Assembly: GCA_964521295.1 (NCBI GenBank)
Contig: CAZFRF010000001.1
Coordinates: 463,865 to 527,864 of the forward strand
Source of the DNA: an uncultured Gammaproteobacteria bacterium
GTDB lineage: Bacteria > Patescibacteriota > Microgenomatia > Levybacterales > UBA12049
Length of the DNA: 64,000 nucleotides
Direction: 5' to 3'
Position 1 is the first letter of the stretch; each line of letters opens with the position of its first letter. The position numbers and the translations under genes were made by a program. A model generated the notes under the pieces. That model made no database searches. It worked only from the letters and a program-made list of their open reading frames with translations, and was not told the DNA's origin. Shown here in pieces: positions 936 through 37,496 of this stretch.

Positions 936-1559
936 TTATAGAGGAACTGCGGTAACGATAAGTCTTTTTTCGTCATAAAATCCCGTACAAGTATAGATTG
1001 TTAATATTTCATCTTTCGTTGGTTTAATTACTTCTATTTCATTTGGATAAACTGTAGTAATTTTATTAACTTTATATCTAAACCACTTTTCTTTTGTAAA
1101 AAGATAAATTACTTCTCCTATCTTTGTGTCTTTTAAGTTATAAAATAAACCTTTCCTTGCATGTGCGAAAATAACAGTATTTGATTTACTTTGGGGATGG
1201 CCACTTCCCAAGCCATAAGATGCACTAGTATCTGAAGTTTCCCAATATCCATTTACAATTTCCGCAGGTACAACTTTTAAGTCAATCTCGCTGTTGGGAA
1301 TTAGAATCCTAACTGGAATATTTTGATTAACTTTTGAATCTAAAAGTTTTGAATTAATAACAATCGGATTATTACCAGCTGGTTTTGCTACCGGGAATTT
1401 CCAAACTAAAACTAGCATTGCCAAAAATATACAAAGAATTCCAATTACTCTATTAATTAATAATTTATTAAGAAAAGTTTTTTTAACCTGTTTCTGCTTA
1501 GGGGAGTTAGAGGATTTGTTTTTTACCTTAGGCATTTTTTTTGAAAAATTTAAATCCAA
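936..1559 (-). CDS. Sortase-family transpeptidase (membrane-anchored)
   Basis: N-terminal TM anchor. Catalytic triad motifs: His in VIFAHAR, Cys in LTIYTCTG (TLxTC), Arg in RLIVTA. Track start is TTG; an ATG at 1535 (MPKVK) is the alternative. Overlaps the upstream surface-protein gene. Confidence 0.75.
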   Translation of the reverse strand: MDLNFSKKMPKVKNKSSNSPKQKQVKKTFLNKLLINRVIGILCIFLAMLVLVWKFPVAKPAGNNPIVINSKLLDSKVNQNIPVRILIPNSEIDLKVVPAEIVNGYWETSDTSASYGLGSGHPQSKSNTVIFAHARKGLFYNLKDTKIGEVIYLFTKEKWFRYKVNKITTVYPNEIEVIKPTKDEILTIYTCTGFYDEKRLIVTAVPL

Positions 1560-1995
1560 CTATACTTAAAACTAGCGCTAAGACTAATTGCCCAAATTGA
1601 ACTATTGGGTTAATGTCTGAGCTCGTAGAAGATAATCCCAAAACAGCTTGAATAGGTGAGCTTGACTTATCATCTGATTTCCCACTACCAGAGTCTCCTC
1701 CGCCCTGTGGTTGATTTGTTGGAGTAGGTGTTAATTTTTCTGTTGGTGTAGGACTAACTTCTGTAACAGGAGTAGGAGTTACGGTAACTGTTGATGTTGG
1801 CGTTGGAGTAACCTGACTAGTAGTTGGCGTTGGAGTACAATCACAATTTTTAATATTTATATTAACTTGTGTTTCAACAACGTTTTCAGCTTTTGAATCA
1901 CCAGTGGTTGTTGCTAAAGAAAATGTTTGGCTTGATATCGATACCAAAATAACAATAGTTGAAACAAAAACAATAGATTGAAAAATTTTATTCAT
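1528..1995 (-). CDS. Thr/Pro-rich cell-surface protein, putative sortase substrate
   Basis: Signal peptide, TPTPT linker, Gly/Ser-rich stalk. C-terminus is INP + hydrophobic helix + KFFKKNA basic tail, a sorting-signal-like architecture. Overlaps the sortase gene start by 8-32 nt. Confidence 0.5.
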   Translation of the reverse strand: MNKIFQSIVFVSTIVILVSISSQTFSLATTTGDSKAENVVETQVNINIKNCDCTPTPTTSQVTPTPTSTVTVTPTPVTEVSPTPTEKLTPTPTNQPQGGGDSGSGKSDDKSSSPIQAVLGLSSTSSDINPIVQFGQLVLALVLSIVGFKFFKKNA

Positions 1996-2183
1996 GTAAT
2001 TAGGAGGCAGTATCAGGCAGTGGTCATGAAATTATATTGTAGAGAATTTATGTTGTCAATAAGCTATTCACAATCTTATTGAGAATTAACTAATTTTTAC
2101 TATAAAATAAATCAATATTAAACCCCAGAAATATTTACCTTATCCGTATAATTGCAAATTTACCTTTTGAAAATCAGGTAAAA

Positions 2184-3497
2184 TTAATTACAGACTGAAG
2201 CTGGATAATAATTATTCGCCTTAGATCCAAAAACTTCTTTTGATCCATTTTCTGTCATATTGTTTCCACATATTTTACCTTGAGGTTCTGTCTCTATTTT
2301 TAAACCGCCAGCTTGATTTTGTTTAAATGTATTGTTATATACATTATTATCTAAACCATATACAGTACCACCTACTGTATGCCCCCCAAGCCTTATTCCA
2401 GCTCCCTTATTACCAAATGTAAGATTATATCTAAATGTATTTTTATCTCCTCTTGCGTCTAATCCGCCCGATTCAGGATCCATCTGACCAGTACATGAAT
2501 TATATTCAACAATATTTTCACTTGATCCCTCTTTTATATCAACGCATTCATTTCCTTGAGTATTAATAGTATTGTGGTGAATATAATTTTTAGTTGATTT
2601 ATCTGGCCCACTTGTAGGATTCTTACCATCGTCCCATTGATCAGCAGCAGTACCTAAATAAATTGCCTCTCCATTTTTATTGTCACTTTTAAACTTGAAG
2701 TCAAAAGCTCCACAGGGACCAATTGTATTATAAGAAATTTCATTACCTAATGCGTAATATCTCAGTCTAACACATTCTCCGCCAGCATTCTTAATCAACA
2801 TCTTTGTTATTTTTAAATTACTGACACCGCTATATTCCTTTTTACCTAAAACATATATAAGCTTATCTCTATAGCTTTTCTCATCTTTTGGATCGCCTAT
2901 CAAACCATCTACAGTAAATCCTTCGAGATTAATATTGCTATGATTTATTTCGATTACACGTTGGGTCCCTGCACCTTTTACTATTGCCTGCCTTCCCCCT
3001 CTTAAGGTTATTGGCGCATCTTTTAAACCATCCCTAACTGAAATAACATCTTGAAAATATACTCCATCTAAAAGGTTTACAACATCAGAAGGATTTGCCA
3101 GTATTAATGCTCTCTGAATTGTTTTTAGCGGAAGATCTTTACTTAAACCATTGTTTTCATCATTTCCTTTATTTGGATCGACAAAATAATTTATACCAAC
3201 TTTTTGCTGATTTTTTCCTTCACTATTTAAATCCTGAGCTGGAGATAACGATTCTTCATTCCCAACAACCTTTTCCTCATTTTGATTTTTTGATGCATTA
3301 TTTTTACTAAGTAATGAAAAAACAATTGAAATTGAAAGTATAAAAATAATTACTAAGGAAAATATTTTTATCATTGGCATTTGCATAGGACTAACTATTA
3401 TTTTTTTCTTTTTTGCATTTTTTACAACTTTAGACCTAGATTTTTTTCTACGCATTTTTATTATTAGAGTATAAACTGGGATTACAAGAAGTGTCAA
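2184..3497 (-). CDS. Membrane-anchored secreted right-handed beta-helix (PbH1/pectin-lyase-fold) protein
   Basis: Basic N-terminus plus TM. Repeated N-x-I/V-x-N-N beta-helix rungs (NNVYNNTFKQNQAGGLKIE, GNKGAGIRLGG). Confidence 0.5.
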   Translation of the reverse strand: MTLLVIPVYTLIIKMRRKKSRSKVVKNAKKKKIIVSPMQMPMIKIFSLVIIFILSISIVFSLLSKNNASKNQNEEKVVGNEESLSPAQDLNSEGKNQQKVGINYFVDPNKGNDENNGLSKDLPLKTIQRALILANPSDVVNLLDGVYFQDVISVRDGLKDAPITLRGGRQAIVKGAGTQRVIEINHSNINLEGFTVDGLIGDPKDEKSYRDKLIYVLGKKEYSGVSNLKITKMLIKNAGGECVRLRYYALGNEISYNTIGPCGAFDFKFKSDNKNGEAIYLGTAADQWDDGKNPTSGPDKSTKNYIHHNTINTQGNECVDIKEGSSENIVEYNSCTGQMDPESGGLDARGDKNTFRYNLTFGNKGAGIRLGGHTVGGTVYGLDNNVYNNTFKQNQAGGLKIETEPQGKICGNNMTENGSKEVFGSKANNYYPASVCN

Positions 3498-3510: not shown

Positions 3511-4422
3511 TTATAATATATTTTTTACTTCGTAGGAGAACTCATTCAAACCAAGTCTTTTAACAAATACATCGTTTACATCGATTGCAGTTTTAAGAAG
3601 TGCTGCGTCAAAACCTTTTTCTGTTGCCCAATTATAAAATGCTCTAGTATCTTTTGGAAGACAACTTCCTTGGAAAGGACCCATATCTCTAATTCCATAT
3701 TTTGGATTCCACATTCCTTCACAACTGATTGCTGTATATTTGAATATTTTATCTGCATCAACATCAATCTTTCCTGCAATCTCTCTCATTTCATTGTAGA
3801 AACTAATTTTTACTGCATTAAATAAATTATGAACATATTTTTGCATTTCTGCTTCCATTAACTTACATCTGTTAATTGGACATTTAAACTTATCTTTATA
3901 AACAGCTTCTAAAATATCTCCTGATTTTTTATCATACTCCCCAATTAAAATTATCCACGCATTTAAAGTGTCATCGTATGAAGTTTCTTCTCTTAAATAT
4001 TCTGGATTCATACATGCACCAAAATCTACTCCAACTTTTTTACCAGAATATTTTTCTATTAATGGAATTACTAAATTTTCTGTAGTTCCTGGGGGAACAG
4101 TGCTTTTTACTACAACCAAATGATATTTATTTGTTTTTGCTAATCTTTTTCCTAAATCGGTTGCTGCTGACTCCATTGCTTCAAGATTAATTTTTCCCAT
4201 TTTTGTAGGAGTTGGAACCGTAAGCATGGAGATATCAAAATCATAATCTCCATCCATTAGCTCCCCTCTTTCATATGCGTCAAATCCTTCTTCTCTTAGT
4301 TTCTCTATTTTTTTAATATTTCCACCTAAGAATGCAACCTTATACCCCTTAGCTGCGAAAACTTTTCCGGTTGCTTGACCGACTACTCCTGGACCAATAA
4401 TACAAATTTTAGGATTATTCAT
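3511..4422 (-). CDS. UDP-glucose/GDP-mannose dehydrogenase-family protein, short form lacking the C-terminal nucleotide-sugar-binding domain
   Basis: N-terminal Rossmann motif IIGPGVVGQATG. Catalytic Cys motif GSCLPKDT aligns with GGSCFPKD of the full-length ugd at 37497-38789. Length is 303 aa versus 430 aa. Confidence 0.6.
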   Translation of the reverse strand: MNNPKICIIGPGVVGQATGKVFAAKGYKVAFLGGNIKKIEKLREEGFDAYERGELMDGDYDFDISMLTVPTPTKMGKINLEAMESAATDLGKRLAKTNKYHLVVVKSTVPPGTTENLVIPLIEKYSGKKVGVDFGACMNPEYLREETSYDDTLNAWIILIGEYDKKSGDILEAVYKDKFKCPINRCKLMEAEMQKYVHNLFNAVKISFYNEMREIAGKIDVDADKIFKYTAISCEGMWNPKYGIRDMGPFQGSCLPKDTRAFYNWATEKGFDAALLKTAIDVNDVFVKRLGLNEFSYEVKNIL

Positions 4423-4545: not shown

Positions 4546-7449
4546 TTAATTTACTTGATCTATCATTCCCATTACATCTTTTCTATTTCTATATAATTCA
4601 TTAGTGCCTAAAATATTACTTACATCTGTGGTTACTTTTGTATAAATTCCATAAATCTTACTTTGTTTTATTTGATTTTGAGCAAGCTTATTATTTAAAG
4701 CATTTTCTTGGAAATATATTCCAACTCCATTATTAAATAAAATATTTTTACTAATTTCGTTTAAATCAGATTTTATATAAACACCAACTTTATTTCCTTC
4801 AAATGAGTTATTGGCAATTAAATTACTATTTGCTTTATCATAAAAATATATACCATATAATTGACTACCGTTAATATCATTATCTTTAATAAGATTCTTA
4901 TTCGAGCTAACATTTGCCCTAACACCATGTCTATTATTTTGAATTGTATTATTGGAAACTATATTATTACTTGACCTCCAAAGAGCGACTCCGCTAACAT
5001 TACCCCTTATAACATTATTTTCTATGACATTATAATCAGATGTCTCATGGAGCATTATTCCATGTAATTTATTGTTATAAGAAATATTATCTCTAATGGT
5101 GTTGTACATACATCTTTTTGAAAAAATAATTCCATGCGTTCCATTATCATGAGCTATATTTTTTTCTACTATAAAACCGTTAGAATCATCATGTGGATCT
5201 AGTCCATATCTTGTGTTCTCGTAAAACTCATTGCCTCTCCAGATCATTCCAGTTGCTCCGTAGGTAAATGCACCGAAATAATTATGGTGGAATTTACTAT
5301 TAACAACTTCTCCAGTTAAAAGATGATTCTTAAGTTTTAAACTCGATAATTTCCACGATATTCCATATGGGGAAACCGCAATATCAGATGCTGTTGGATA
5401 TCCAAGATAAGAAATTTCTGAATCAAATAAATCCATTCTTGCATTATCCTTTACCATAATAAAACTTCTGCCATCTTTTAGTTCTTTATCGTAATCGTTT
5501 TTCGAACTATCCCATGAAGTAATTTTTACACCATTAATAATTATGTCGCCATTTCTACTTCTAAGCATTGCAAAGCCGTCTTTATTACTTTCAAGCTTTA
5601 ACCATTTAACTTCACTTTTATCTAACTTAAGAGTTACACCATCTGCTAGGAAAATTGTTGCTTTAGAAAGATATGTATAGGGCTCAAGTTCTAAAATATA
5701 GTCTTTTCCTGCACGTGAAATAATATCTTTTAGGGTAACAACCTTTCCTCTTCCTGTTACTAAAAGTGTATTTGTTTTACTATCATATGTAACAGCAATT
5801 CCTCCATCATCCCTAAACGGCCTAACTAAACTAAATTCGGAAATTAACTCAAGATCTTTTCCGGGAATAGAAATAATCTGCCCTTTCGTAATTTGTCTAT
5901 TTGGTGCCTTTGCCATATTTGCATAATAGAGTTGCTCACTGTTAACACCAAACTTGTTCGCTATTTGATCCAAAGATTCATCATTTAATACTTCATATCT
6001 TTTTGACAAAAGATCTTTCTGTACTGAACCCGTTCCCAATACGCTTACTGAAGCAATTTTTTTTGTATCATTAGGCAAAGCTTGGGACAATATTTGCATT
6101 TTTTGTTGATTTGGTAGTAAATATGTATATTGTTTATATAAATAAACACCATATGCTAAAAACAAAACTATAGTAAAAGTTGCTAGATATGGAGGAAGTG
6201 AATTAATAAATTTCATATGTGGAAGCCTCGATTTATCCCATCTTGTAATCCAGCCCTGTGTATTTAAAGTGAAAAATGCATATATCTTTACCAAACCAGT
6301 AAAGAAGGAATATAAAACATAACCAGGTAGGATATAAATATTTTTTGGATTCTTTGATAAATAAGGATGAATCTTAATCGCCCTACTTACAAACCACCAG
6401 CAAAAGATTATTGCTGCAGCAACATAAGATCCAAGATAAATCGAAACAAAGAAATATATTGGACTTAAAATGACTACAAATGATTGCAAGAATTTATCAA
6501 TTTGAAAAAACAGTAATGCAGGATGTTTCAATGGCCAACCATTTAATATGGCTCCAAGATCAGCTCTTAACCCATTTCTTGTCCATCTGAGTCTTTGCTT
6601 AAGATATGCTCTTAAACTCTCCATCCCAGGAGTATAAACATGAGAATTACTTTGAAAAGCAACCTTATAACCTGCTGCTAAAACTAAATATGTTAACCTC
6701 TTATCATCACCTGAGATAACTGGTCTACCTAAAAACTTTTCGTTTACTAAATCGTCAAGCATTGGTGTTATTATTTCTCTTTTATAAAATGCGGTTCTTC
6801 CCGAAAGACAGACTAATGCATCTCCACATGCTGCTAAGAATGGGTACTCATGCTTGTACCTTAAATCAAGTTGGATATCAAATATTTTCTGTGCAAATGT
6901 TTTAGGATTTAATACGTTTTGATATGTTGCTACTCCTCCCATTTTTTTATCGTTAAAGGGCGGAAGTCCATTTTCTAAAGTATCTTTTACCCAAATAGTA
7001 TCACTATCTACTAAAGCAACAATCTCACTCTTTGCAACTTTTATTCCATCTACTAAAGCCTGCCTTTTCCCTGGAACTTTAGTAATAATTAATTTTGCAC
7101 CAGGAAAAGTTTTCTTAAACTTCTCGAAAATCTTAATACAAATTTTATCTGTATAATCAATTACTGCAATTATTTCATCTGGCTTATTTCTTTTCCAAGA
7201 TTCTAGAGCTTGTGTAAATACTTTTGGATTTTCATTATATACTGGAGTAATTATAGAAACTTTTGCTTTATAAGATTTTGTTTTGGGATGATAATGAAGC
7301 CCAACTATTTCTTTCATCATCCAAATAGACCATCGCCAAATACCGATTATTCCAAGCGGTACTAAGAATGAATATCTGTCTAAATATTGTTGCGAATAAA
7401 ATGATAAATCTCCAATGAATAATTGAAAGTTCAAAATAAACGATTCCAT
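4546..7449 (-). CDS. Processive GT2 polysaccharide synthase (NodC/chitin/hyaluronan-synthase-like) fused to a LysM motif and a C-terminal PbH1 beta-helix domain
   Basis: GT2 motifs DSDT, SGDDKRLT (GEDRxLT-like), QRLRWTRN (QxxRW), followed by multiple TM helices. LysM-like segment: YEVLNDESLDQIANKFGVNSEQLYYANM...ITKGQIISIPG. C-terminal repeats NNVIRGN / NNTIQNN / IKDNDINGS are typical of parallel beta-helix. Confidence 0.7.
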   Translation of the reverse strand: MESFILNFQLFIGDLSFYSQQYLDRYSFLVPLGIIGIWRWSIWMMKEIVGLHYHPKTKSYKAKVSIITPVYNENPKVFTQALESWKRNKPDEIIAVIDYTDKICIKIFEKFKKTFPGAKLIITKVPGKRQALVDGIKVAKSEIVALVDSDTIWVKDTLENGLPPFNDKKMGGVATYQNVLNPKTFAQKIFDIQLDLRYKHEYPFLAACGDALVCLSGRTAFYKREIITPMLDDLVNEKFLGRPVISGDDKRLTYLVLAAGYKVAFQSNSHVYTPGMESLRAYLKQRLRWTRNGLRADLGAILNGWPLKHPALLFFQIDKFLQSFVVILSPIYFFVSIYLGSYVAAAIIFCWWFVSRAIKIHPYLSKNPKNIYILPGYVLYSFFTGLVKIYAFFTLNTQGWITRWDKSRLPHMKFINSLPPYLATFTIVLFLAYGVYLYKQYTYLLPNQQKMQILSQALPNDTKKIASVSVLGTGSVQKDLLSKRYEVLNDESLDQIANKFGVNSEQLYYANMAKAPNRQITKGQIISIPGKDLELISEFSLVRPFRDDGGIAVTYDSKTNTLLVTGRGKVVTLKDIISRAGKDYILELEPYTYLSKATIFLADGVTLKLDKSEVKWLKLESNKDGFAMLRSRNGDIIINGVKITSWDSSKNDYDKELKDGRSFIMVKDNARMDLFDSEISYLGYPTASDIAVSPYGISWKLSSLKLKNHLLTGEVVNSKFHHNYFGAFTYGATGMIWRGNEFYENTRYGLDPHDDSNGFIVEKNIAHDNGTHGIIFSKRCMYNTIRDNISYNNKLHGIMLHETSDYNVIENNVIRGNVSGVALWRSSNNIVSNNTIQNNRHGVRANVSSNKNLIKDNDINGSQLYGIYFYDKANSNLIANNSFEGNKVGVYIKSDLNEISKNILFNNGVGIYFQENALNNKLAQNQIKQSKIYGIYTKVTTDVSNILGTNELYRNRKDVMGMIDQVN

Positions 7450-7451
7450 AA

Positions 7452-8327
7452 TTAATTTTTCTTTCCTTTCTTAATTTTTTTCATGACACTATTTTTTACT
7501 TCAGTATTTTTATTCTTATTTATAAATTTTCCTATAAATGAAAAATTTATATATTTATTTTTATAAATAATGATAAATGCCATAAATAAAATGACATTTA
7601 ATTGAGGAAAATATTCACACCAAAAATTATCATTTGGACATGAACCGTTTATCCTTTTAAAAATTATGAATATCATTAAGGGTATTAATACTGAATAAAT
7701 TTTTTTCAATTTAACATATCTATTAGAAAAATAAAAAAAACTAATCAATAAAAGTAATTCGATTCCAAGCATTTTTAAACCAACGCAACTTGTGCAACTT
7801 AATGATTGACCTTCAATTGTTGTTAATGGCGCTGGCGGGGGCGCTTTATCATCATCACTATTATTTATTTCTCCTGAGTCTGTTGCGCCCTCAACAGCTT
7901 TATATATCGATAAGTTTGGCTGCCTTGAAGTTGTAATACCATTTGGATATCCAGCAATAGCTGAAAGTTTATTGGAAAATTTTCCAGGCTTACAACCGTT
8001 TTCTCCACGTACTTTAAAATAATACTTAACTCCATTTGTTAATTCATTAACAGTATAAGTAGTGGTACCTTTTGGTCCAACGTTTGGATTTCCAAACTCA
8101 ACATCTAATTCATTTCTAGAATACGCAACCAAATAATGCGTTACAGGATCCGATGCTTCTTGCCATGTCAAAACTACACTTCTATCTTTTGCTTCTGCAG
8201 ACAAAAGAACAGGTGGTGTAAATGGTCTTTCATTTTTACAACTAACCGCATATCCTTTATTTATAGATGAAGACCCCAATAAAAAACAAAAAAGTAGTAT
8301 AACTACTACAAATATTTTTCCCGCCAT
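7452..8327 (-). CDS. Membrane protein with fibronectin type III-like domain
   Basis: Signal peptide. FN3-like block (LTWQEASDPVTHYLVAY...YYFKVRGENGC). Pro-rich linker. C-terminal hydrophobic helices with a Lys-rich tail. Confidence 0.4.
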   Translation of the reverse strand: MAGKIFVVVILLFCFLLGSSSINKGYAVSCKNERPFTPPVLLSAEAKDRSVVLTWQEASDPVTHYLVAYSRNELDVEFGNPNVGPKGTTTYTVNELTNGVKYYFKVRGENGCKPGKFSNKLSAIAGYPNGITTSRQPNLSIYKAVEGATDSGEINNSDDDKAPPPAPLTTIEGQSLSCTSCVGLKMLGIELLLLISFFYFSNRYVKLKKIYSVLIPLMIFIIFKRINGSCPNDNFWCEYFPQLNVILFMAFIIIYKNKYINFSFIGKFINKNKNTEVKNSVMKKIKKGKKN

Positions 8328-8819
8328 ATTTTTAATATGGCAAATTGTAACATAAAAATTTAAAAAAGTCTTGAGTTAATTTTACTAATATTTCCATTTT
8401 CCCAACGATCGAGAAATTTTGAATATATTTCTAAACAAAATAAATATAAATATTACTATTTAAAAAAATTGTCTTACTAATCTCTTACTCATAAATATGT
8501 GTTTTAAAATAAATAAATTTTATATTTAATACATGAAATATTTAGTTGCTTGGATACTAGGAGTCCCAGTTGGGGTGTTGGTTATTATTTGGATTATCAC
8601 GCAAATAATATAATTTATGAAAATTACATTATTTAACAAAAAATCTTCTCAGAAAATATATTTAGATGAAAATCAAAAAAAATTAATTCTTTTTACAAGA
8701 TTTCAAATTAAAAAATTACAAGAAAAAGGCCTTAAAATTCCCATTACCTTCTTATAATCTTTACACAATTATTACATTTTCTTCATATTGTTTTTCAAAA
8801 TAAGAGTTATAAATAAATT

Positions 8820-9158
8820 ATGAATTTTAACGCAGGCAGAATTTTGCTTTTTTTTGTAAACTTTGTATTTGGACTTATTGAAATAATAATTGGTTTTAGA
8901 ATTTTACTTCTTATGTTAGGTGCAAACCCTAATACCCCAGTTGTGAGCTGGATATACTCAGTAAGCGCAAATCTTTTATATCCATTTCAAAATATTTTTC
9001 CTTCTCCAGTATTAGGAAAAGGTTTTGTTTTAGATATGTCCGCCCTAGTTGGTTTATTAATTTACGCTGTAATAAGTTATTTAATTACTGAATTAATTAA
9101 ATTTATAAGTTATACTTCAAACAATTATTATGTATCAGATAAAAGAAAACATGAATAA
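8820..9158 (+). CDS. YggT-family small membrane protein (putative)
   Basis: 112 aa, 3-4 TM helices. FVLDMSALVGLLIY resembles the YggT repeat. Confidence 0.4.
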   Translation: MNFNAGRILLFFVNFVFGLIEIIIGFRILLLMLGANPNTPVVSWIYSVSANLLYPFQNIFPSPVLGKGFVLDMSALVGLLIYAVISYLITELIKFISYTSNNYYVSDKRKHE

Positions 9159-9204
9159 TTTAAGGTAAATTGCCGAGTTTTCTGTTAACTGTTAAAATTT
9201 AAAA

Positions 9205-9882
9205 ATGAATAAAACAATATTAGTAATCGAAGATCAAAAAGATTTACAGAATTATCTAAAAGAGTTCTTACTTGATAATGATTTTCTTGTCTTAACTGCA
9301 AACGATGGCATCACAGGATTAAATCTTCTAAAAAGAACGCTTCCAGACTTAGTTCTTCTAGATCTGGGACTTCCTAATATGGATGGGGAAAGCGTTTGCC
9401 GTGAAATCAAAAAGAATTGGCCGGGACTTAAGATTATTATTCTCACAGCTAAAAATGATACCCTCGACATAGTTCATGGTCTTAATCTAGGTGCTGATGA
9501 TTATATTACTAAACCTTTTCAGCTAGAAGAATTAATTGCAAGAATAAAAGCAAGACTTAGGCATGATACTAAAAACACTCCCACTAAAAGCCTAGAGGAT
9601 CTTGAGCTAAATGAAGAAACCCACGAGGTAAAAAGAAATGGAATAAACATAGACCTTACAGCAACTGAATTTAAACTTCTCGATTATTTAATGTCAAATC
9701 CAGGCAAAGTTTTAACCAGAGAAATGATTTTAAGTAAAATTTGGTCCATGGCACCAGATATTGAATCTAGATCGGTTGATGTATATATTGGCTATTTAAG
9801 AAGAAAAATAGACAGTAATTCTCCAAAAAAACTAATTCAATCAGTAAGAGGATTTGGCTACACAATTAAATCATCTAACTAA
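9205..9882 (+). CDS. Two-component response regulator, OmpR/PhoB family
   Basis: Receiver domain (DQKDL...LLDLGLPNMDG...K). C-terminal winged-helix trans_reg_C (LTATEFKLLDYLMSNPGKVLTREMI...VDVYIGYLRRKI). Confidence 0.85.
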   Translation: MNKTILVIEDQKDLQNYLKEFLLDNDFLVLTANDGITGLNLLKRTLPDLVLLDLGLPNMDGESVCREIKKNWPGLKIIILTAKNDTLDIVHGLNLGADDYITKPFQLEELIARIKARLRHDTKNTPTKSLEDLELNEETHEVKRNGINIDLTATEFKLLDYLMSNPGKVLTREMILSKIWSMAPDIESRSVDVYIGYLRRKIDSNSPKKLIQSVRGFGYTIKSSN

Positions 9883-10144
9883 TCGTCAATAGTTTCGATG
9901 TCTTTGCTTTAGATTTTTCCGTAAAATATGTTGTTGCATTTGGATTATTACTAAGTTTATGAGTGTAATCAAACTTAGAAGAATATTTTCTCTTCTTTAA
10001 TTTTACTGTATGTTTTACCTCTAGGGGCGATGACCAAATAATGTAAAAAGAGTTTACTAATGGAATGTTATTTATTATGTTTTTCATATTTTTATAATAG
10101 TGAAAAAATATTGTAAGTTGAGGAAAGTGGAGTAAGAAAAAAGT

Positions 10145-10191
10145 AAAAAAAAAGAGGCTTGTTCAAAGCGCTAAACAAACCTCATTTTTTT
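10145..10191. terminator. Bidirectional rho-independent terminator
   Basis: A8-GAGGCTTGTT-loop-AACAAACCTC-T7 hairpin flanked by A- and T-runs, between the convergent response-regulator gene and the 10198-10470 gene. Confidence 0.45.
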
Positions 10192-10197
10192 AGGGAT

Positions 10198-10470
10198 TTA
10201 TTTTTTATTACTTTTACTTGATTTATTTTTTATTACTTTTTTTAATTTATCTTTTCCCTCTTCCAAATTCACATCGTCTTTGTGGGAGTTTATATATTCA
10301 ACAGCCTGATCCTTAGCTGCTGTTACAACTTCCTTAACCTTTTTCTTGGCATTTTCATTTTTAAGAGCTTGAGCTGCTGCAATTGCTACACCTGCTCCAA
10401 CTACTGCTCCAGTTACGGCACTCGCTATTGGATTTATTGAATTGTCCTTCTTCTTATCATTACTAAACAT
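10198..10470 (-). CDS. Small Lys-rich protein with one hydrophobic segment (stress-protein-like)
   Basis: 90 aa. AVTGAVVGAGVAIAAAQAL helix flanked by K/E-rich tails. Confidence 0.4.
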   Translation of the reverse strand: MFSNDKKKDNSINPIASAVTGAVVGAGVAIAAAQALKNENAKKKVKEVVTAAKDQAVEYINSHKDDVNLEEGKDKLKKVIKNKSSKSNKK

Positions 10471-10482
10471 AATCTCACCTCC

Positions 10483-10695
10483 TTATTTTTTAGAATCTAT
10501 ATTAACGTTTATATCTTTAGGAACATTAATCTCTGGTGATGTGGAATAAGAGTTAAAAAAACTTGCTAACATTGGGAATAAATATACTACTAATATAACC
10601 ACTACCACCAATAACAAAATAATTCCTAAAATCATTCCCATTCCATTTCCTGATGAATCATTGTTTGCTGGAGGATTTACGATTGTCGTTGCCAT
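10483..10695 (-). CDS. Small membrane protein
   Basis: 70 aa, single strong TM (ILGIILLLVVVVILVVYLF). Confidence 0.35.
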   Translation of the reverse strand: MATTIVNPPANNDSSGNGMGMILGIILLLVVVVILVVYLFPMLASFFNSYSTSPEINVPKDINVNIDSKK

Positions 10696-10696
10696 T

Positions 10697-10939
10697 TTAT
10701 TTATGCACCATCCTTCCTATGGTAATTAAAATTACTGCTCCAATAATCGCTACTACGAAACTATAAATATTAAAACCCGTCACTCCTGATTCACCAAGAA
10801 GGTTCATAATAAAACCACCCACAAATGCACCAAGAATTCCTAAAATGATATCCTCAAGTAAACCATGATTACCCTTAGTTAATAAATCTGCAATCCAACC
10901 CACTATTGCTCCGAACACTATCCATACAATGATATTCAT
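10697..10939 (-). CDS. GlsB/YeaQ/YmgE-family transglycosylase-associated membrane protein
   Basis: 80 aa. Pattern IVWIVFGAIVGWIADLL...GILGAFVGGF is typical of this family. Confidence 0.7.
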   Translation of the reverse strand: MNIIVWIVFGAIVGWIADLLTKGNHGLLEDIILGILGAFVGGFIMNLLGESGVTGFNIYSFVVAIIGAVILITIGRMVHK

Positions 10940-11026
10940 AAGCTCATCTTAATAAAGGATGTAAAAAATCAAAGAAGACTAATGTAAGAAATAAGTAAGA
11001 AAGATCATTTATGGATTATTTTTTGT

Positions 11027-11032
11027 TATAAT
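11027..11032 (+). promoter_or_regulatory. Extended -10 element (TGTTATAAT) about 10 nt upstream of the kinase ATG; near-leaderless transcript likely
   Basis: TGtTATAAT at 11024-11032, ATG at 11043, no Shine-Dalgarno. Confidence 0.35.
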
Positions 11033-11042
11033 TTAGGCTCAA

Positions 11043-12227
11043 ATGGAAACAATTGATGTAAAAATTAAAAATGAAAATATAATGGATTTAGTTTATAAAT
11101 CCGCTATCAAATTTCTTACTCCGCTCAATCTGGAGGAAACATATAAAGTATTTATAAATGAAGCATTAAAGATTTCCAAAGCTCAACATGGATCAATTAT
11201 CCTGATAAAAAATGGACACTTTACTAGAGCTTATTCTACAAGTACTCTTTTAAATCAAATTAAACCTCGAACGAGAGGCTACACATATAATGCATATAAA
11301 ACGAAAACAATTAAAATCTTAACAAAAACTCAACTTGCTAAAATTCATCCCGAAATATTAGAGCAACAAATTGAATACGATATTATTATTCCCCTAGTTA
11401 ACGATAATAGATCAATTGGAGTTTTTACAATTCTTTCTAAACATAAGCTCTCTAAAGATCAAATAAGAGCTCTAAAGCTATTTAGTCCCTTGGGAACTCT
11501 AGCAATTAGAAAAGCTCAATTATATTTGGATGTTCAAAAAACTATCGAAGCAAGAGACCTCTTTGTATCAATTGCTTCCCATGAACTACGAACTCCTCTA
11601 ACCACTTCCTACATATATCTTCAGCTAATTGAAAGAAATTATGCAAAAAATAAACCTTTTGATATTAAGTGGGTAACGACTTTAAAAGATGAAACTGAGA
11701 GGCTTTCTTCAATAATTAACGAGTTATTAGAAATAAATCAGATTAACATGGGAAAATTCTCATATAATTTAGAGGTTTGCAATATTGATGACGTCATTAA
11801 TAGAGTAATTAGTAACTTTAAAATTAAATATAAAAATAGATTTACAGCTATTAATAAGATTCCTTCTGAAAACAAATTAATAATTTGTGACTCTAATAAG
11901 CTAATCTCCGTATTTATTAATTTATTAGATAATGCTATTAAACATTCTGATGAAACTTCAAAGGTAACAGTTTTACTTGAATCAGATCGAAAAAAATATA
12001 TTACCATTTCAATACAGGATAAGGGAGAAGGAATTCCTAGAGAAGATTTAAAAAAAATATTTGATGATTTTTATAAAGCCAAAAATAATACAAAACCAGG
12101 AATGGGTTTAGGTCTTTTTATTGCTAAAAGAATTATTGATAAACACAGGGGCAAAATCTTAGTAACATCCCAGCTTAACAAAGGTACCAATGTTAGTGTA
12201 CAATTACCATTCATTAAAGATGCTTGA
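11043..12227 (+). CDS. Cytoplasmic sensor histidine kinase (GAF-like N-terminus, HisKA, HATPase_c)
   Basis: H-box SIASHELRTPLT, N-box NLLDNAIKHS, G-boxes DKGEGIP and GMGLGLFIAKRII. No TM segments. Confidence 0.85.
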   Translation: METIDVKIKNENIMDLVYKSAIKFLTPLNLEETYKVFINEALKISKAQHGSIILIKNGHFTRAYSTSTLLNQIKPRTRGYTYNAYKTKTIKILTKTQLAKIHPEILEQQIEYDIIIPLVNDNRSIGVFTILSKHKLSKDQIRALKLFSPLGTLAIRKAQLYLDVQKTIEARDLFVSIASHELRTPLTTSYIYLQLIERNYAKNKPFDIKWVTTLKDETERLSSIINELLEINQINMGKFSYNLEVCNIDDVINRVISNFKIKYKNRFTAINKIPSENKLIICDSNKLISVFINLLDNAIKHSDETSKVTVLLESDRKKYITISIQDKGEGIPREDLKKIFDDFYKAKNNTKPGMGLGLFIAKRIIDKHRGKILVTSQLNKGTNVSVQLPFIKDA

Positions 12228-34600: not shown

Positions 34601-34612
34601 GATTATATTAAA

Positions 34613-35569: not shown

Positions 35570-35571
35570 AT

Positions 35572-36534
35572 CTATTTTTCCCTTTCTAACTCAGCTTCAA
35601 CCATCATCTTTACCAAATCCTCAAATGACACCTCTGGCTCCCAGCCTAATTTTTCTTTGGCTTTTGTATAATCTCCGATTAGATAATCTACCTCTGCTGG
35701 TCTTGTATGTTCTGGATGGTCTTGAACAACATAGTGTTCCCAATCCTCAATTCCTGCGTTTTTAAACGCTAATTCAACAAACTCTCTAACACTGTGGGTC
35801 TCACCGGTAGCGATTACATAATCGTCAGGTTCTGGTTGCTGAAGCATCATCCACATAGCTTTTACATAATCTCCAGAGTAACCCCAATCTCTCTTTGATT
35901 CTAAGTTTCCTAAAATAATTTTACTTTGCTTACCAAGCTTAATCCTAGCAACACCGTTGGCAATTTTTCTAGTAACAAATTCTATTCCTCTTCTTGGAGA
36001 CTCATGGTTAAAGAGAATTCCTGAACATGCAAAAATTCCATAGCTCTCTCTATAATTCTGAGTAATGTAATGACCATAAACTTTCGCTACTCCATAAGGA
36101 CTCCTTGGATGAAATCTCGTTGTTTCTTTTTGTGGAGTCTCAGTTACTTTTCCAAACATTTCGGAGCTTGATGCCTGATAAAACTTAATCTTTGGATTTG
36201 TAGTTCTAATTGCCTCTAAAACCCTAGTAACACCTAATCCTGTAAATTCTCCTGTTAAAACTGGTTGATCCCAGGATGCTTTTACAAATGATTGCGCAGC
36301 AAGATTGTATACCTCATCTGGCTTTGCCTTATGGATTGCATCTGTTAAAGATCCCTGATCTAATAAATCTGCAGATACTAAATGAATATTATCAACTATA
36401 TCTTTAATATTCTCCATGTTTGGAGTAGAGAGTCTCCTAACTGTTCCCCAAACATCATAACCCTTAGAAAGCAAAAACTCTGCTAGATATGGTCCATCCT
36501 GTCCTGTAATACCAGTAATTAATGCGCTTTTCAT
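35572..36534 (-). CDS. gmd: GDP-mannose 4,6-dehydratase
   Basis: [23 protein letters not shown] and the remaining sequence closely match Gmd. Confidence 0.85.
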
Positions 36535-37493: not shown

Positions 37494-37496
37494 AGA

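What the first reader, a model, noticed from the sequence alone, without database searches (positions are those of the whole stretch)
4546..7449. 967-aa fusion: NodC/chitin/hyaluronan-synthase-like processive GT2, LysM motif and C-terminal parallel beta-helix
One polypeptide carries the hallmarks of a processive beta-glycan synthase (DSDT, SGDDKRLT, QRLRWTRN, multi-TM channel). It also has a LysM-like segment, a fold that binds GlcNAc polymers, and about 330 aa of PbH1 beta-helix repeats of the kind found in polysaccharide lyases, hydrolases and epimerases. A synthase physically fused to a binding module and a putative modifying or cleaving module for its own product is an unusual architecture. 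The neighbouring genes are a truncated Ugd paralog, a secreted beta-helix protein and an FN3 membrane protein. This suggests a compact surface-polymer system, possibly for a chitin- or hyaluronan-like product, in a reduced genome.
Basis: partly seen in the sequence, partly recalled or inferred. Interest (0 to 1): 0.75.

Follow-up and report, generated by a model that had tools for sequence, protein, structure and literature searches.

The report
Alginate-type synthase fused to epimerase
A tiny-genome (CPR) bacterium encodes one membrane protein that appears to polymerise a sugar-acid chain, push it out of the cell and edit it outside. With its neighbour genes it looks like a stripped-down alginate pathway, a polymer so far known only from Pseudomonas, Azotobacter and brown seaweeds.

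Summary
ORF 4546..7449 (minus strand, 967 aa) has a membrane-embedded processive GT2 synthase, a LysM domain and a C-terminal beta-helix, all above Pfam thresholds. More than 116 full-length relatives exist in CPR bacteria.

The interpretation needs correcting. The beta-helix is a specific homologue of the alginate C5-epimerase AlgG (PDB 4NK6, E 1e-33; family profile 157 bits), with invariant Tyr, Asp and His of YGxDPHD. The "truncated Ugd" is a conserved ~300-aa dehydrogenase whose best solved relative is GDP-mannose dehydrogenase AlgD. It has the same short architecture as the biochemically proven brown-algal GDP-mannose dehydrogenases.

This dehydrogenase sits beside the synthase and epimerase in 32 of 43 genome loci. 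That includes Chloroflexi and Woesearchaeota, where the three are separate genes. In 10 CPR genomes the next gene is a PL7 lyase about 50% identical to polyguluronate lyase 1UAI.

The GT2 carries HAS/NodC motifs but aligns colinearly with authentic Alg8 (HHalign 97.9%) and shares GDDK and GIWR(W/Y)S with it.

Best reading: a minimal alginate-like (mannuronan plus C5-epimerisation) system without Alg44/PilZ, not chitin or hyaluronan. The product is inferred, not shown. I found no prior description.

The parts
4546..7449 (-). Whole 967-aa fusion protein: processive GT2 synthase, LysM, AlgG-like C5-epimerase
   Evidence: ORF found. Domains assigned. AF2 model has mean pLDDT 88.8. More than 116 full-length homologues.
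6070..7449 (-). Synthase module, residues 1-460: two N-terminal helices, a cytosolic GT-A domain, interface helices and three further membrane helices
   Evidence: Best PDB hits are XlHAS1 8SMM at 69 bits and CvHAS 7SP7 at 59 bits. Foldseek TM-score (target-normalised) is about 0.6 to HAS. Aligns colinearly with authentic Alg8 P0329, E 5e-13. HHalign probability to Alg8 is 97.9%.
6574..7260 (-). GT-A catalytic domain, residues 64-292, with PVYNE, DSDT (148-151), GDDK (247-250) and QRLRW (285-289)
   Evidence: Pfam PF13641 at 92.8 bits. Translation checked. D148, D150, D249, K250, Q285, R288 and W289 are invariant in 59 sequences.
6199..6270 (-). Putative cytosolic gating loop, residues 394-417, with W400-I-T402-R403. 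It is equivalent to the HAS WGT(S/R) loop between IFH3 and TMH5.
   Evidence: Aligned to WGTS of XlHAS1 and WGTR of CvHAS. W400, T402 and R403 are invariant. AF2 gives low confidence at 399-415, and this loop is disordered in apo XlHAS1 (PMC11750622). The loop has 4 K/R residues.
6079..6213 (-). Last membrane helix, residues 413-457 (TMH5 equivalent). There is no TMH6, so the chain exits to the outside.
   Evidence: AF2 helix at 413-457. Hydropathy peak at 414-435. Aligned to the XlHAS1 segment after the gating loop. HAS topology taken from PMC11750622.
5863..6003 (-). LysM domain, residues 483-529
   Evidence: Pfam PF01476 at 24.6 bits, cutoff 20.9. Family profile versus Ecp6 LysM scores 36.9 bits. 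AF2 models a beta-alpha-alpha-beta unit. Translation checked.
4561..5796 (-). AlgG-like right-handed beta-helix, residues 552-963: putative polymer-level uronate C5-epimerase
   Evidence: AlgG 4NK6/4OZZ at E about 5e-33. Family profile scores 157 bits. NCBIfam AlgG model at 134.6 bits. Foldseek top hit is 4NK6, TM-score (target-normalised) 0.71.
5188..5208 (-). Catalytic motif YGLDPHD, residues 748-754
   Evidence: Aligned to AlgG YGIDPHD. Y748, G749, D751, H753 and D754 are invariant. Roles of His and Tyr taken from PMC4444821. Translation checked.
3511..4422 (-). Short (303 aa) two-domain nucleotide-sugar 6-dehydrogenase, putative GDP-mannose 6-dehydrogenase of the brown-algal short type
   Evidence: Pfam finds N-terminal and central domains only. 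Best PDB hit is AlgD 1MFZ, E 3e-42. More than 120 short homologues. Catalytic residues are invariant. Adjacent to the synthase or epimerase in 32 of 43 loci. Short algal GMDs are biochemically proven (PMC4782291).
2184..3497 (-). Membrane-anchored beta-helix protein (437 aa from the TTG start; the true start is probably ATG 3455). It occupies the position that a PL7 alginate lyase holds in relatives. Candidate lyase or second modifier.
   Evidence: Pfam Beta_helix and DUF1565 hits fall just below cutoff. Homologues are linked to the cluster in about 10 loci. The profile reaches only N-terminal cap hits to GH120 and PL9 enzymes. Function not established.
7452..8327 (-). Signal peptide, FN3 domain and C-terminal TM segments. 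The gene abuts the fusion gene with a 2-nt gap. Possible accessory subunit.
   Evidence: Pfam fn3 at 43.5 bits. Linked in L001-L010 and L029. Overlaps the fusion start codon in L044 and L046. Role unknown.

Best explanation
The fusion protein and its neighbours form a minimal, monoderm-style alginate-like exopolysaccharide machine.

Step 1 (inferred). In the cytoplasm, the 303-aa short dehydrogenase oxidises GDP-mannose to GDP-mannuronic acid.

Step 2 (inferred by homology to HAS and Alg8). The N-terminal GT2 module, residues 1-460, polymerises the uronic acid on its cytosolic GT-A domain. It threads the growing chain through its own transmembrane channel. A WxTR gating loop closes over the active site.

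Step 3 (topology inferred from the HAS architecture). The module has only three membrane passes after the cytosolic domain. So the chain continues outside the cell into a LysM domain and a roughly 410-aa beta-helix.

Step 4 (inferred from catalytic-residue conservation). The beta-helix is an AlgG-type C5-epimerase. It converts some mannuronate residues of the emerging polymer into guluronate. The conserved His abstracts H-5, and the conserved Tyr positions a water molecule that re-protonates from the other face. LysM most likely pins this module to peptidoglycan beside the channel exit.

Step 5 (inferred). A lyase trims or releases the polymer. In many relatives this is a PL7 polyguluronate-type lyase. 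In this genome it may be the 437-aa beta-helix protein.

No Alg44/PilZ, AlgK/E or AlgX equivalents are present, and none would be needed without an outer membrane.
For: Epimerase:
- AlgG is the best sequence and fold match: E about 5e-33, family profile 157 bits, Foldseek rank 1. The next beta-helix families score far lower: AlgE4/E6 about 45 bits and NosD 30 bits.
- Y748, D751, H753 and D754 are invariant, and K778/R779 sit where AlgG has Arg345. Mechanism taken from PMC4444821.
- YGxDPHD occurs in 113 of 116 homologues.

Synthase:
- HAS-type motifs are invariant and the fold matches HAS.
- Authentic Alg8 aligns end to end and shares GIWR(W/Y)S, GKR, DxDT, (S/T)GR, GDDK, RW and VKIYxFFxLxxQxW.
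- GDDK occurs in 110 of 116 homologues.

Dehydrogenase:
- AlgD is the top PDB hit.
- The short two-domain form is conserved.
- It matches the proven brown-algal GMDs in length (315-320 aa), in the GxGVVG motif and in a Pro at Cys-5 (PMC4782291).
- Algal GMDs are reported to be 40% identical to a Woesebacteria protein (PMC11468063).

Gene linkage:
- The dehydrogenase, GT2 and epimerase are adjacent in 32 of 43 loci. They are separate genes in Chloroflexi and Woesearchaeota.
- A PL7 lyase about 50% identical to polyguluronate lyase 1UAI (E 7e-60), with its catalytic motifs, flanks the cluster in 10 genomes and in L050.
- PMM and PGI/PMI genes flank the cluster in Chloroflexi L035.

Precursor supply:
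- The window also encodes GDP-mannose 4,6-dehydratase, so a GDP-mannose pool exists.
- It also encodes a separate canonical UGDH.

Topology:
- The HAS architecture (PMC11750622), the alignments, the AF2 helices and positively charged cytosolic loops agree.
- Unfused epimerase homologues have a signal/TM segment plus a C-terminal anchor.
Against: - No chemistry has been done. The polymer is inferred entirely from homology and gene context.
- The GT2 scores slightly higher against hyaluronan synthases than against Alg8: 59-69 versus 45-50 bits for the single sequence, and 79-84 versus 69-72 bits for the family profile. It retains the Q of QxxRW and the PVYNE motif, both of which Alg8 lacks.
- The dehydrogenase is about as similar to the archaeal UDP-glucose dehydrogenase AglM (NCBIfam 169 bits; 35% identity on plasmids) as to AlgD. 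The domain that reads the nucleotide is missing, so GDP-mannose versus UDP-glucose is not settled by sequence.
- All scores are far below the NCBIfam equivalog cutoffs, for example AlgG 134.6 against 700.
- LysM binds GlcNAc-containing glycans, which fits a GlcNAc-containing product as well as peptidoglycan anchoring.
- In Chloroflexi the motif is YGFDAHT and the Arg345-equivalent residue is Glu.
- One distant short dehydrogenase (P0367) lies in an unrelated context.
- This window itself has no PL7 gene.
Confidence: 0.58

Rival explanations
1. The machine has the same architecture but makes a glucuronate-based polymer. The dehydrogenase produces UDP-GlcA. The HAS-like GT2 makes a hyaluronan-, heparosan- or glucuronan-like chain. 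The fused beta-helix epimerises GlcA to L-iduronate at polymer level.
For: - The GT2 is marginally closer to class I HAS than to Alg8.
- The hasA-hasB (synthase plus UGDH) operon logic is known; this point rests on my own knowledge.
- The dehydrogenase scores 169 bits against the AglM UDP-glucose dehydrogenase model and is 35% identical to AglM.
- LysM would bind a GlcNAc-containing product.
- R197/Y198 align with the XlHAS1 R287/Y288 residues that contact HA in the channel (PMC11750622).
Against: - Every solved homologue of the beta-helix domain with E below 1e-6 is a mannuronan C5-epimerase.
- Known GlcA C5-epimerases have a different fold; this rests on my own knowledge.
- The short dehydrogenase architecture is that of proven GDP-mannose dehydrogenases (PMC4782291), and AlgD is its top solved match.
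- The linked lyase is polyguluronate-lyase-like.
- The genome already has a canonical UGDH, sitting beside a UXS-like gene.
- The family has GDDK like Alg8 in 110 of 116 members, and no member has the GDDR of HAS.
Confidence: 0.15
2. The polymer is a polyuronate as above, but the fused beta-helix is not an epimerase. It acts instead as a lyase that controls chain length, or as a non-catalytic guide that protects the nascent chain.
For: - Epimerases and lyases share the first catalytic steps, and AlgE7 performs both reactions with one active site (PMC4444821).
- Catalytically dead AlgG still protects nascent alginate (PMC4436075).
- The DPHD motif drifts in Chloroflexi (DAHT) and archaea (DFHD).
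Against: - Tyr, Asp and His are invariant across CPR, Chloroflexi and archaeal homologues. That argues for retained catalysis.
- A separate dedicated lyase (PL7) or a second beta-helix protein is usually encoded alongside, so a fused lyase would be redundant.
- The closest relatives are epimerases, not PL6 or PL1 lyases.
Confidence: 0.12
3. One reading: the GT2 makes chitin or a chito-oligosaccharide as NodC does, LysM binds that product, and the beta-helix hydrolyses or deacetylates it.
For: - NodC is the best NCBIfam hit for the GT2 at 97 bits.
- LysM is a GlcNAc-polymer binder.
Against: - The NodC score is far below its cutoff of 550.
- A neutral GlcNAc polymer gives no role to an invariably linked 6-dehydrogenase, to an AlgG-type active site that acts on uronate C5, or to linked alginate lyases.
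- No chitinase or deacetylase domain was detected.
Confidence: 0.05

Closest known systems
Pseudomonas/Azotobacter alginate machinery (AlgD, Alg8-Alg44, AlgG, AlgL)
   Same: - The same four enzymatic roles are represented by homologues: an AlgD-like dehydrogenase, an Alg8-related membrane GT2 (GDDK, RW, GIWR(W/Y)S), an AlgG-type beta-helix epimerase with the Tyr/Asp/His site, and, in relatives, an alginate lyase gene in the cluster.
- Polymerisation and modification are physically coupled in Pseudomonas as well (PMC4436075).
   Different: - Synthase and epimerase are one polypeptide joined through a LysM domain.
- There is no Alg44/PilZ (c-di-GMP) co-polymerase, no AlgK/AlgE/AlgX/AlgIJF, and no outer-membrane export.
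- The dehydrogenase lacks the whole C-terminal domain.
- The lyase is PL7, or a beta-helix protein, rather than the PL5 enzyme AlgL.
- The GT2 is only 21% identical to Alg8 and keeps HAS/NodC features (QxxRW, PVYNE).
- The hosts are CPR bacteria, Chloroflexi and DPANN archaea.
Class I hyaluronan synthases (CvHAS 7SP6, XlHAS1 8SMM) and the streptococcal hasA-hasB operon
   Same: - Best solved structural and sequence match for the synthase half.
- Same DxDT, GDD(R/K), QxxRW and W-x-T-(R/S) gating-loop motifs, and the same order of IFH and TMH elements.
- The synthase gene sits next to a sugar 6-dehydrogenase gene.
   Different: - HAS has four C-terminal TMHs and a cytosolic C-terminus. This protein has three and continues outside.
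- HAS has no fused modifying enzyme.
- The motif is GDDK rather than GDDR.
- The N-terminal helix motif is shared with Alg8, not with HAS.
- The dehydrogenase is AlgD-like and short, not a canonical UGDH.
Brown-algal alginate pathway (short GMD, ManC5-E, unidentified mannuronan synthase)
   Same: - Short (~300-320 aa) GDP-mannose-dehydrogenase architecture with GxGVVG and P-x-G-G/S-x-C-L-P-K-D.
- DPHD-type C5-epimerases.
- Algal GMDs are reported as most similar (40%) to a Woesebacteria protein (PMC11468063).
   Different: - The algal epimerases are free secreted proteins in large gene families.
- The algal synthase is unknown and reported to have no homology to Alg8 (PMC11468063).
- I could not make a direct sequence comparison with algal proteins here.
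Secreted AlgE-type mannuronan C5-epimerases (AlgE4 2PYG, AlgE6 5LW3)
   Same: Right-handed beta-helix with the YG(F/L)DPH(D/E) active site. Detected at 45 bits by the family profile.
   Different: - Much more distant than AlgG.
- AlgE enzymes are Ca2+-dependent and carry R-modules.
- This domain has His at the AlgG-like position and K/R where AlgG uses Arg to neutralise the carboxylate.

Membership tests
AlgG-type mannuronan C5-epimerase | Right-handed parallel beta-helix fold most similar to AlgG | tested here: met
   AF2 gives a beta-helix at 552-963 with pLDDT above 90. The Foldseek top hit is 4NK6, TM-score (target-normalised) 0.71. phmmer against AlgG gives E about 5e-33.
AlgG-type mannuronan C5-epimerase | DPHD motif with catalytic His, preceded by Tyr (AlgG Y314, D317, H319, D320) | tested here: met
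   YGLDPHD at residues 748-754 aligns to AlgG YGIDPHD. It is invariant in 59 sequences and present in 113 of 116 homologues. Residue roles are from PMC4444821. Unfused Chloroflexi and archaeal relatives keep Y, D and H but not P or the last D.
AlgG-type mannuronan C5-epimerase | Basic residue that neutralises the substrate carboxylate (AlgG Arg345) | tested here: inconclusive
   AlgG HGIIISRE aligns with HGIIFSKR, so a Lys sits at the Arg position with an Arg next to it, and both are invariant. This is a conservative change, not an identity. In Chloroflexi the residue is Glu.
AlgG-type mannuronan C5-epimerase | Scores as an equivalog (NCBIfam NF038177 cutoff 700 bits) | tested here: not met
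   The score is 134.6 bits. It is a homologue, not an orthologue-level member.
AlgG-type mannuronan C5-epimerase | Converts M to G in polymannuronate | not testable with these tools
   Requires an enzyme assay.
Membrane-embedded processive GT2 synthases (HAS/NodC/chitin synthase/Alg8 clade) | GT-A domain with DxD, GDD(R/K)/TED-type base and QxxRW on an interface helix | tested here: met
   DSDT at 148-151, GDDK at 247-250 and QRLRW at 285-289 are invariant and aligned to HAS and to Alg8.
Membrane-embedded processive GT2 synthases (HAS/NodC/chitin synthase/Alg8 clade) | Gating loop W-x-T-(R/S) between IFH3 and the next TMH | tested here: met
   GWITRW at 399-404 aligns to WGTS and WGTR and is invariant. 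The role of the loop is from PMC11750622.
Membrane-embedded processive GT2 synthases (HAS/NodC/chitin synthase/Alg8 clade) | Transmembrane channel-forming helices packed on the GT domain | tested here: met
   AF2 places helices at 2-51 and 310-457. Foldseek matches to CvHAS and XlHAS1 cover 460-515 alignment columns.
Class I hyaluronan synthase | GDDR motif, WGT(S/R)G loop, four C-terminal TMHs with a cytosolic C-terminus, dual UDP-GlcNAc/UDP-GlcA use | tested here: not met
   The motif is GDDK, and no homologue has GDDR. The loop reads W-I-T-R-W, without the Gly that is essential in CvHAS (PMC11750622). There are only three post-GT membrane helices. Substrate use is untestable.
Alg8 mannuronan synthase | Full-length colinear homology to authentic Alg8, including GDDK (294-297) and RW (339-340) | tested here: inconclusive
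   BLASTP against P0329 gives E 5e-13 at 21% identity over 453 columns. HHalign probability is 97.9%. Signature motifs are shared. However, the score is lower than against HAS. There is no curated Alg8 model or structure to score against.
Alg8 mannuronan synthase | Works with the PilZ co-polymerase Alg44 | tested here: not met
   No PilZ or Alg44-like gene was detected in the Pfam-scanned genes around the cluster or in the Pfam-annotated relatives' loci.
LysM domain (PF01476) | Passes the Pfam gathering threshold and has the beta-alpha-alpha-beta fold | tested here: met
   24.6 bits against a cutoff of 20.9. AF2 places strands at 483-486 and 525-528 and helices at 493-500 and 504-511. The family profile versus Ecp6 scores 36.9 bits.
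Short (brown-algal type) GDP-mannose 6-dehydrogenase | About 300-320 aa with N-terminal and central domains only; GxGxVG near residue 10-19 and GGxCLPKD near residue 255-265 | tested here: met
   The protein is 303 aa with PF03721 and PF00984 only. GPGVVG lies at 10-15 and GSCLPKD at 252-258. Published values are in PMC4782291. GxGVVG occurs in 117 of 120 family members and Pro at Cys-5 in 114 of 120.
Short (brown-algal type) GDP-mannose 6-dehydrogenase | Direct sequence similarity to Ectocarpus or Saccharina GMD; GDP-mannose specificity | not testable with these tools
   No algal sequence could be fetched. The only link is the published 40% identity between algal GMDs and a Woesebacteria protein (PMC11468063).
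Canonical UDP-glucose/GDP-mannose dehydrogenase (three domains) | C-terminal nucleotide-sugar-binding domain PF03720 | tested here: not met
   The domain is absent here and in all cluster-linked homologues. It is present in the window's other UGDH at 37497..38789. Alignment A3 shows the short form ends where PF03720 begins.

The most novel reading that the evidence does not exclude
This GT2 family is a second, non-Alg8-type mannuronan synthase. The compact module of short GMD, this GT2 and a DPHD epimerase is widespread in CPR bacteria, Chloroflexi and DPANN archaea. On this reading it represents the prokaryotic source, or a sister lineage, of the brown-algal alginate pathway. If so, alginate-like polymers are made well beyond Pseudomonas, Azotobacter and seaweeds, including in archaea. 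Searching brown-algal genomes with this GT2 could then identify the long-sought algal mannuronan synthase.
Probability: 0.15. Interest if true: 0.9.

Novelty: new variant of a known kind. Interest (0 to 1): 0.72.

Why it matters
- **Host range.** Bacterial alginate synthesis is known only as the roughly 12-gene, outer-membrane-spanning, c-di-GMP-gated system of Pseudomonas and Azotobacter. If this reading is right, a three-to-four-gene version exists in ultra-small CPR bacteria, Chloroflexi and DPANN archaea. That would greatly widen the list of likely producers of alginate-type polymers in groundwater, sediments and sludge.
- **Coupling.** In this version the polymerase and epimerase are one polypeptide. 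That is a natural, hard-wired form of the polymerisation-modification coupling inferred genetically in Pseudomonas (PMC4436075).
- **Tractable system.** A single-chain synthase-epimerase is an attractive minimal target for structural work and for engineering alginates with a defined G content.
- **Short dehydrogenases.** The result places the odd brown-algal short GDP-mannose dehydrogenases within a large prokaryotic family.
- **Algal synthase.** It offers a concrete GT2 candidate type for the still-unidentified algal mannuronan synthase (PMC11468063).
- **CPR surface biology.** It suggests these episymbiotic cells coat themselves with an acidic, gel-forming polymer tied to their wall through LysM.

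Tried and rejected
Rejected as the best reading because of the AlgG-type active site, the AlgD-like short dehydrogenase and the linked polyG-type lyases.
- **Dehydrogenase as a decayed pseudogene.** Rejected. More than 120 short clusters exist, the catalytic residues are invariant, and the form is conserved in three lineages.
- **Lack of an Alg8 hit in NCBIfam and PDB as evidence against Alg8.** Rejected. Authentic Alg8 itself hits nothing in either library. I retrieved authentic Alg8 by seeding a word-based search with a remembered, imperfect sequence. Only the returned database proteins were used afterwards.
- **Full-length archaeal dehydrogenase (L040, 432 aa) to read nucleotide specificity.** Its extra length is a second partial central domain, not PF03720.
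- **437-aa beta-helix neighbour.** The single-sequence AF2 model is unusable at pLDDT 36.8. Sequence and profile searches against the PDB give only weak N-terminal cap hits. Its function is left open.
- **Direct comparison with brown-algal GMD or with MBP7967557.1.** No sequences are in the paper supplements. None is recognisable among the top 150 representatives or in the cluster look-ups. The Tenhaken 2011 and Wolfram 2014 papers are not held.
- **Viral carriage.** No viral contig encodes a relative of the fusion. The viral dehydrogenase hits are generic, at 33% identity or less.
- **Riboswitch or other known RNA in the 490-nt leader.** None found.
- **Promoter scan.** No more hits than in shuffled sequence.
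- **Looking up the identical protein's contig for annotated context.** Not on record.
- **Geometry of the beta-helix groove relative to the channel exit.** pTM 0.68 leaves the inter-domain arrangement uncertain.

Full report
**1. The observation**

A 967-codon ORF occupies 4546..7449 on the minus strand.

Pfam places Glyco_tranf_2_3 at residues 64-292 (92.8 bits). LysM lies at 485-529 (24.6 bits, cutoff 20.9). Beta_helix and NosD cover the C-terminal third (113 and 95 bits).

An identical protein lies on a 935,984-bp NCBI contig. More than 116 full-length homologues (51-80% identity, about 960 aa) come from Ames-, Roizman-, Levy-, Davies-, Woese- and Curtissbacteria bins. So this is a conserved gene family of Microgenomates-type CPR bacteria. 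The only amendment is that the beta-helix is about 410 aa long (552-963 in the AF2 model).

**2. The beta-helix is an AlgG-type C5-epimerase homologue**

- NCBIfam's best hit for residues 570-868 is the mannuronan 5-epimerase AlgG (E 4e-39, 134.6 bits). This is far below the equivalog cutoff of 700.
- In the PDB the top four matches are AlgG structures (4NK6, 4NK8, 4OZY, 4OZZ; E about 5e-33 to 7e-32). AlgE4 and AlgE6 follow at about 1e-8.
- With a 59-sequence family profile, AlgG reaches 157 bits, against 45 for AlgE and 30 for NosD.
- Foldseek of a confident AF2 model (mean pLDDT 88.8) ranks AlgG first, with target-normalised TM-score 0.71.
- The AlgG active-site stretch YGIDPHD aligns with YGLDPHD (748-754).
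- According to PMC4444821, the His of DPHD abstracts H-5, Tyr314 positions the proton-donating water, and an Arg neutralises the carboxylate.
- Y748, G749, D751, H753 and D754 are invariant in the family. YGxDPHD occurs in 113 of 116 homologues.
- The AlgG Arg345 position holds Lys778 followed by Arg779, both invariant.

**3. The synthase half**

Residues 125-451 match class I hyaluronan synthases: XlHAS1 8SMM at 69 bits and CvHAS 7SP7 at 59 bits. The alignment runs through DxDT, C-x-SG, GDD(K/R)xLT, QxxRW and the late W-x-T-(R/S) motif. Foldseek gives target-normalised TM-scores of about 0.6 to HAS, with lower values for BcsA and chitin synthases. D148, D150, D249, K250, Q285, R288, W289, W400, T402 and R403 are invariant.

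The Alg8 comparison needed care. NCBIfam has no Alg8 model and the PDB has no Alg8 relative: authentic Alg8 hits nothing in either. The absence of an Alg8 hit in the first searches therefore meant nothing. I retrieved authentic, source-named Alg8 proteins (P0329 is the P. aeruginosa mannuronan synthase, 494 aa) and compared them directly.

- BLASTP gives E 5e-13, 21% identity, colinear over 453 columns.
- phmmer gives 45-50 bits. The family HMM gives 69-72 bits. HHalign gives probability 97.9%.
- Against HAS the same family profile scores 79-84 bits.

The GT2 is thus roughly equidistant from HAS and Alg8.

- Shared specifically with Alg8: the N-terminal helix motif G-I-W-R-(W/Y)-S, (S/T)GR, GDDK (110 of 116 homologues, and no homologue has GDDR) and VKIYxFFxLxxQxW.
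- Shared with HAS/NodC but not Alg8: PVYNE and the Gln of QxxRW.

Motif positions in P0329 (RW at 339-340) agree with PMC4436075. The synthase sequence alone does not fix the donor sugar.

**4. Topology**

[quoted passage not shown] QxxRW lies in IFH2. The WGT(S/R) gating loop lies between IFH3 and TMH5 and is disordered in the apo state.

The AF2 model here maps onto that plan:

| Residues | Element |
|---|---|
| 2-25, 27-51 | Two N-terminal helices |
| 64-273 | GT domain |
| 279-303 | Helix carrying QRLRW |
| 310-338, 342-366 | Two membrane helices |
| 368-393 | Helix aligned with IFH3 |
| 399-415 | Low-confidence loop carrying W400-I-T-R403 |
| 413-457 | Long helix aligned with the segment after the gating loop |

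There is no further hydrophobic helix. The loops predicted to be cytosolic are K/R-rich.

With three passes after the cytosolic domain, LysM (483-529) and the beta-helix lie outside the cell. This is consistent with two further facts. AlgG is periplasmic. The unfused epimerase homologues of Chloroflexi and archaea carry an N-terminal signal/TM segment and a C-terminal TM anchor. The topology is inferred, not measured.

**5. The "truncated Ugd" is a conserved short dehydrogenase closest to GDP-mannose dehydrogenase**

- The 303-aa protein (3511..4422) has only the N-terminal and central domains.
- Its best solved relative is AlgD, GDP-mannose 6-dehydrogenase 1MFZ (E 3e-42, 148 bits). The Pyrobaculum UGDH 3VTF follows at 124 bits.
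- More than 120 clusters at 60-100% identity have the same two-domain make-up, with median length 303 aa.
- In an exhaustive search, the short form dominates roughly the best 100 representatives clustered at 50% identity.
- Aligned with the window's own canonical UGDH (37497..38789, 430 aa, with PF03720), the short proteins stop exactly where PF03720 begins. They keep GxGxxG, NPE(Y/F)LRE, K195, N199 and C254-x-x-K-D.

This puzzled me until the literature supplied a precedent. Saccharina GMD1 and GMD2 are 320 and 315 aa. They carry GxGxVG at 11-19 and GGxCLPKDV at 256-267. HPLC and MS show that they convert GDP-mannose to GDP-mannuronic acid. They differ from bacterial GMDs by a Val in the NAD motif and a Pro two residues before GGxC (PMC4782291).

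The window's protein has GPGVVG at 10-15, and Pro249 lies five residues before Cys254. These features occur in 117 and 114 of 120 family members. PMC11468063 reports that brown-algal GMDs are most similar (40%) to a Candidatus Woesebacteria protein. Woesebacteria carry this cluster (L004).

Caveats: I could not fetch an algal sequence for a direct comparison. Haloarchaeal AglM, a UDP-glucose dehydrogenase, scores about as well as AlgD. GDP-mannose is therefore the favoured substrate, not a proven one. The window also encodes a genuine GDP-mannose 4,6-dehydratase (447 bits), so the cell makes GDP-mannose.

**6. Gene linkage across lineages**

- Of 43 genome loci with a relative, 32 have the short dehydrogenase adjacent to the synthase or epimerase.
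- Seven of the other 11 are contigs truncated on the relevant side.
- Four are stand-alone distant beta-helix genes.

| Lineage | Locus | Gene order |
|---|---|---|
| Chloroflexi | L031 (L032, L035, L037 similar) | beta-helix 557 aa, dehydrogenase 311 aa, GT2 419 aa, as three separate genes |
| Woesearchaeota | L039 | dehydrogenase, beta-helix, GT2, beta-helix |
| Woesearchaeota | L040 | dehydrogenase, beta-helix, GT2 |

This fused-versus-unfused pattern, together with conserved adjacency in bacteria and archaea, argues independently that the three activities act in one pathway. In the unfused epimerases Tyr, Gly, Asp and His stay invariant. The motif reads YGFDAHT in Chloroflexi and YGMDFHD in Woesearchaeota.

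**7. A linked alginate lyase**

In Amesbacteria (L044) and Roizmanbacteria (L046), the gene next to the pair is a PF08787 Alginate_lyase2 (PL7) protein. tblastn finds it beside the cluster in 10 distinct genomes, including Levy-, Woese-, Curtiss- and Moranbacteria. Pfam confirms the Moranbacteria copy at 145 bits. It also lies beside a distant 925-aa fusion in L050.

The Amesbacteria protein matches the polyguluronate lyase 1UAI at E 7e-60 (206 bits). It retains RSELREM, QIHD and YFKxGxYxQ. Guluronate exists only as the product of polymer-level C5-epimerisation of mannuronate. A G-type lyase beside a synthase-epimerase therefore fits alginate well.

This window has no PL7 gene. The same slot holds a 437-aa membrane-anchored beta-helix protein (2184..3497). 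Homologues of that protein take the slot in about 10 other loci, and L012 has both. I could not establish its function.

In Chloroflexi L035, a PMM-family gene and a PGI/PMI-type isomerase flank the cluster.

**8. Model**

- The short dehydrogenase supplies GDP-mannuronate (inferred).
- The GT2 module polymerises and translocates it (inferred from HAS and Alg8 homology).
- The chain emerges next to a LysM-tethered AlgG-type epimerase, which introduces guluronate (inferred from active-site conservation).
- A lyase trims or releases the polymer (inferred from context).
- LysM binds GlcNAc glycans, so with a polyuronate product its likely role is attachment to peptidoglycan. It is detectable in 70 of 120 homologues, so it is not indispensable.
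- The FN3 membrane protein abuts or overlaps the fusion's start codon and may be an accessory subunit.
- There is no PilZ/Alg44, AlgK/E or AlgX. Without an outer membrane they would not be needed.

**9. Rivals**

- A GlcA-based polymer with GlcA-to-IdoA epimerisation remains possible. The GT2 is slightly closer to HAS, AglM-like scores are comparable, and LysM would fit. Against it stand the epimerase, dehydrogenase and lyase affinities.
- The beta-helix could instead act as a lyase or a passive guide. Invariant catalytic residues and a separately encoded lyase argue against this.
- The chitin/NodC reading gives no role to the dehydrogenase, the uronate-C5 active site or the lyases.

**10. Novelty**

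Full-text searches found nothing combining alginate or C5-epimerase with CPR or Patescibacteria. Database names for these proteins are generic: "glycosyl transferase family 2", "right-handed parallel beta-helix repeat-containing protein", and once "hyaluronan synthase".

The parts belong to known families. What is new is the arrangement and the host range:

- a synthase-epimerase fusion;
- a short GMD;
- no c-di-GMP co-polymerase;
- occurrence in CPR bacteria, Chloroflexi and DPANN archaea.

I rate it a new variant of a known kind.

The brown-algal mannuronan synthase is still unidentified and is reported to be unrelated to Alg8 (PMC11468063). This GT2 family is a concrete candidate type to search for. 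That link is speculative.

Noticed in passing
window 31893..41370: A nucleotide-sugar island. It contains a PMT_2 glycosyltransferase, a GT2 with a GtrA/DPMS TM domain, a UXS-like SDR, a genuine GDP-mannose 4,6-dehydratase (447 bits), another SDR, a canonical three-domain UGDH (430 aa), RmlD, an RmlB-like protein and RmlC. It shows that the cell has GDP-mannose, UDP-GlcA and dTDP-rhamnose pathways separate from the cluster.
   Followed up: partly
window 936..1995 (-): A Thr/Pro-rich 155-aa protein with a C-terminal hydrophobic tail overlaps a sortase gene. A perfect TTGACA-17-TATAAT match lies upstream at 2059..2031. The sortase, often with the TP-rich protein, recurs next to the synthase cluster in L002, L003, L009, L020, L029, L038, L044 and L046. 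This may indicate a wall-anchored partner of the polymer system.
   Followed up: partly
window 3455..3497 (-): An 11-of-12 promoter-like match (3497..3468) lies inside the TTG-initiated 5' end of the 437-aa beta-helix ORF. The real start is probably the ATG at 3455 (MRRKKSRSK...), which would give a 423-aa protein.
   Followed up: no
window 1..807 (-): An ORF runs off the left edge of the window. It encodes at least 269 aa with a signal peptide, has no Pfam hit, and has no homologue in any fetched locus.
   Followed up: partly
L007 1134-7887; L011: Curtissbacteria and Daviesbacteria loci carry two tandem synthase-LysM-epimerase fusion genes flanking one short dehydrogenase, at about 60-67% identity to the query. 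This paralogy resembles the multiple epimerases of Azotobacter and brown algae.
   Followed up: no
L044 5088-8957: Amesbacteria encode a 1289-aa secreted NosD/Beta_helix, fn3 and CHB_HEX_C protein just upstream of the cluster. Its C-terminal FN3 region resembles the window's FN3 protein.
   Followed up: no
L048 4824-8787: A distant short dehydrogenase (P0367, 48% identity) lies between a GHMP sugar kinase and an Asn-synthase-like amidotransferase, not beside a GT2 or epimerase. The short-dehydrogenase family therefore serves at least one other pathway.
   Followed up: no
L040 6607-7905: The Woesearchaeota cluster dehydrogenase is 432 aa. The extra length is a second partial copy of the central domain (PF00984 twice), not the canonical PF03720 domain.
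   Followed up: partly
L001, L005, L008, L010, L012, L013 and other loci: Many contigs that encode 50-86%-identical copies of this CPR protein come from records titled "uncultured Gammaproteobacteria bacterium" (TPA MAGs). Their gene content matches Microgenomates loci, so those record titles are probably placeholder or wrong taxonomy.
   Followed up: no
window 8820..12227 (+): Transcribed divergently from the cluster are a YGGT-family membrane protein, an OmpR-type response regulator (9205..9882) and a GAF-HisKA-HATPase kinase (11043..12227). No known riboswitch lies in the 490-nt leader at 8328..8820.
   Followed up: partly
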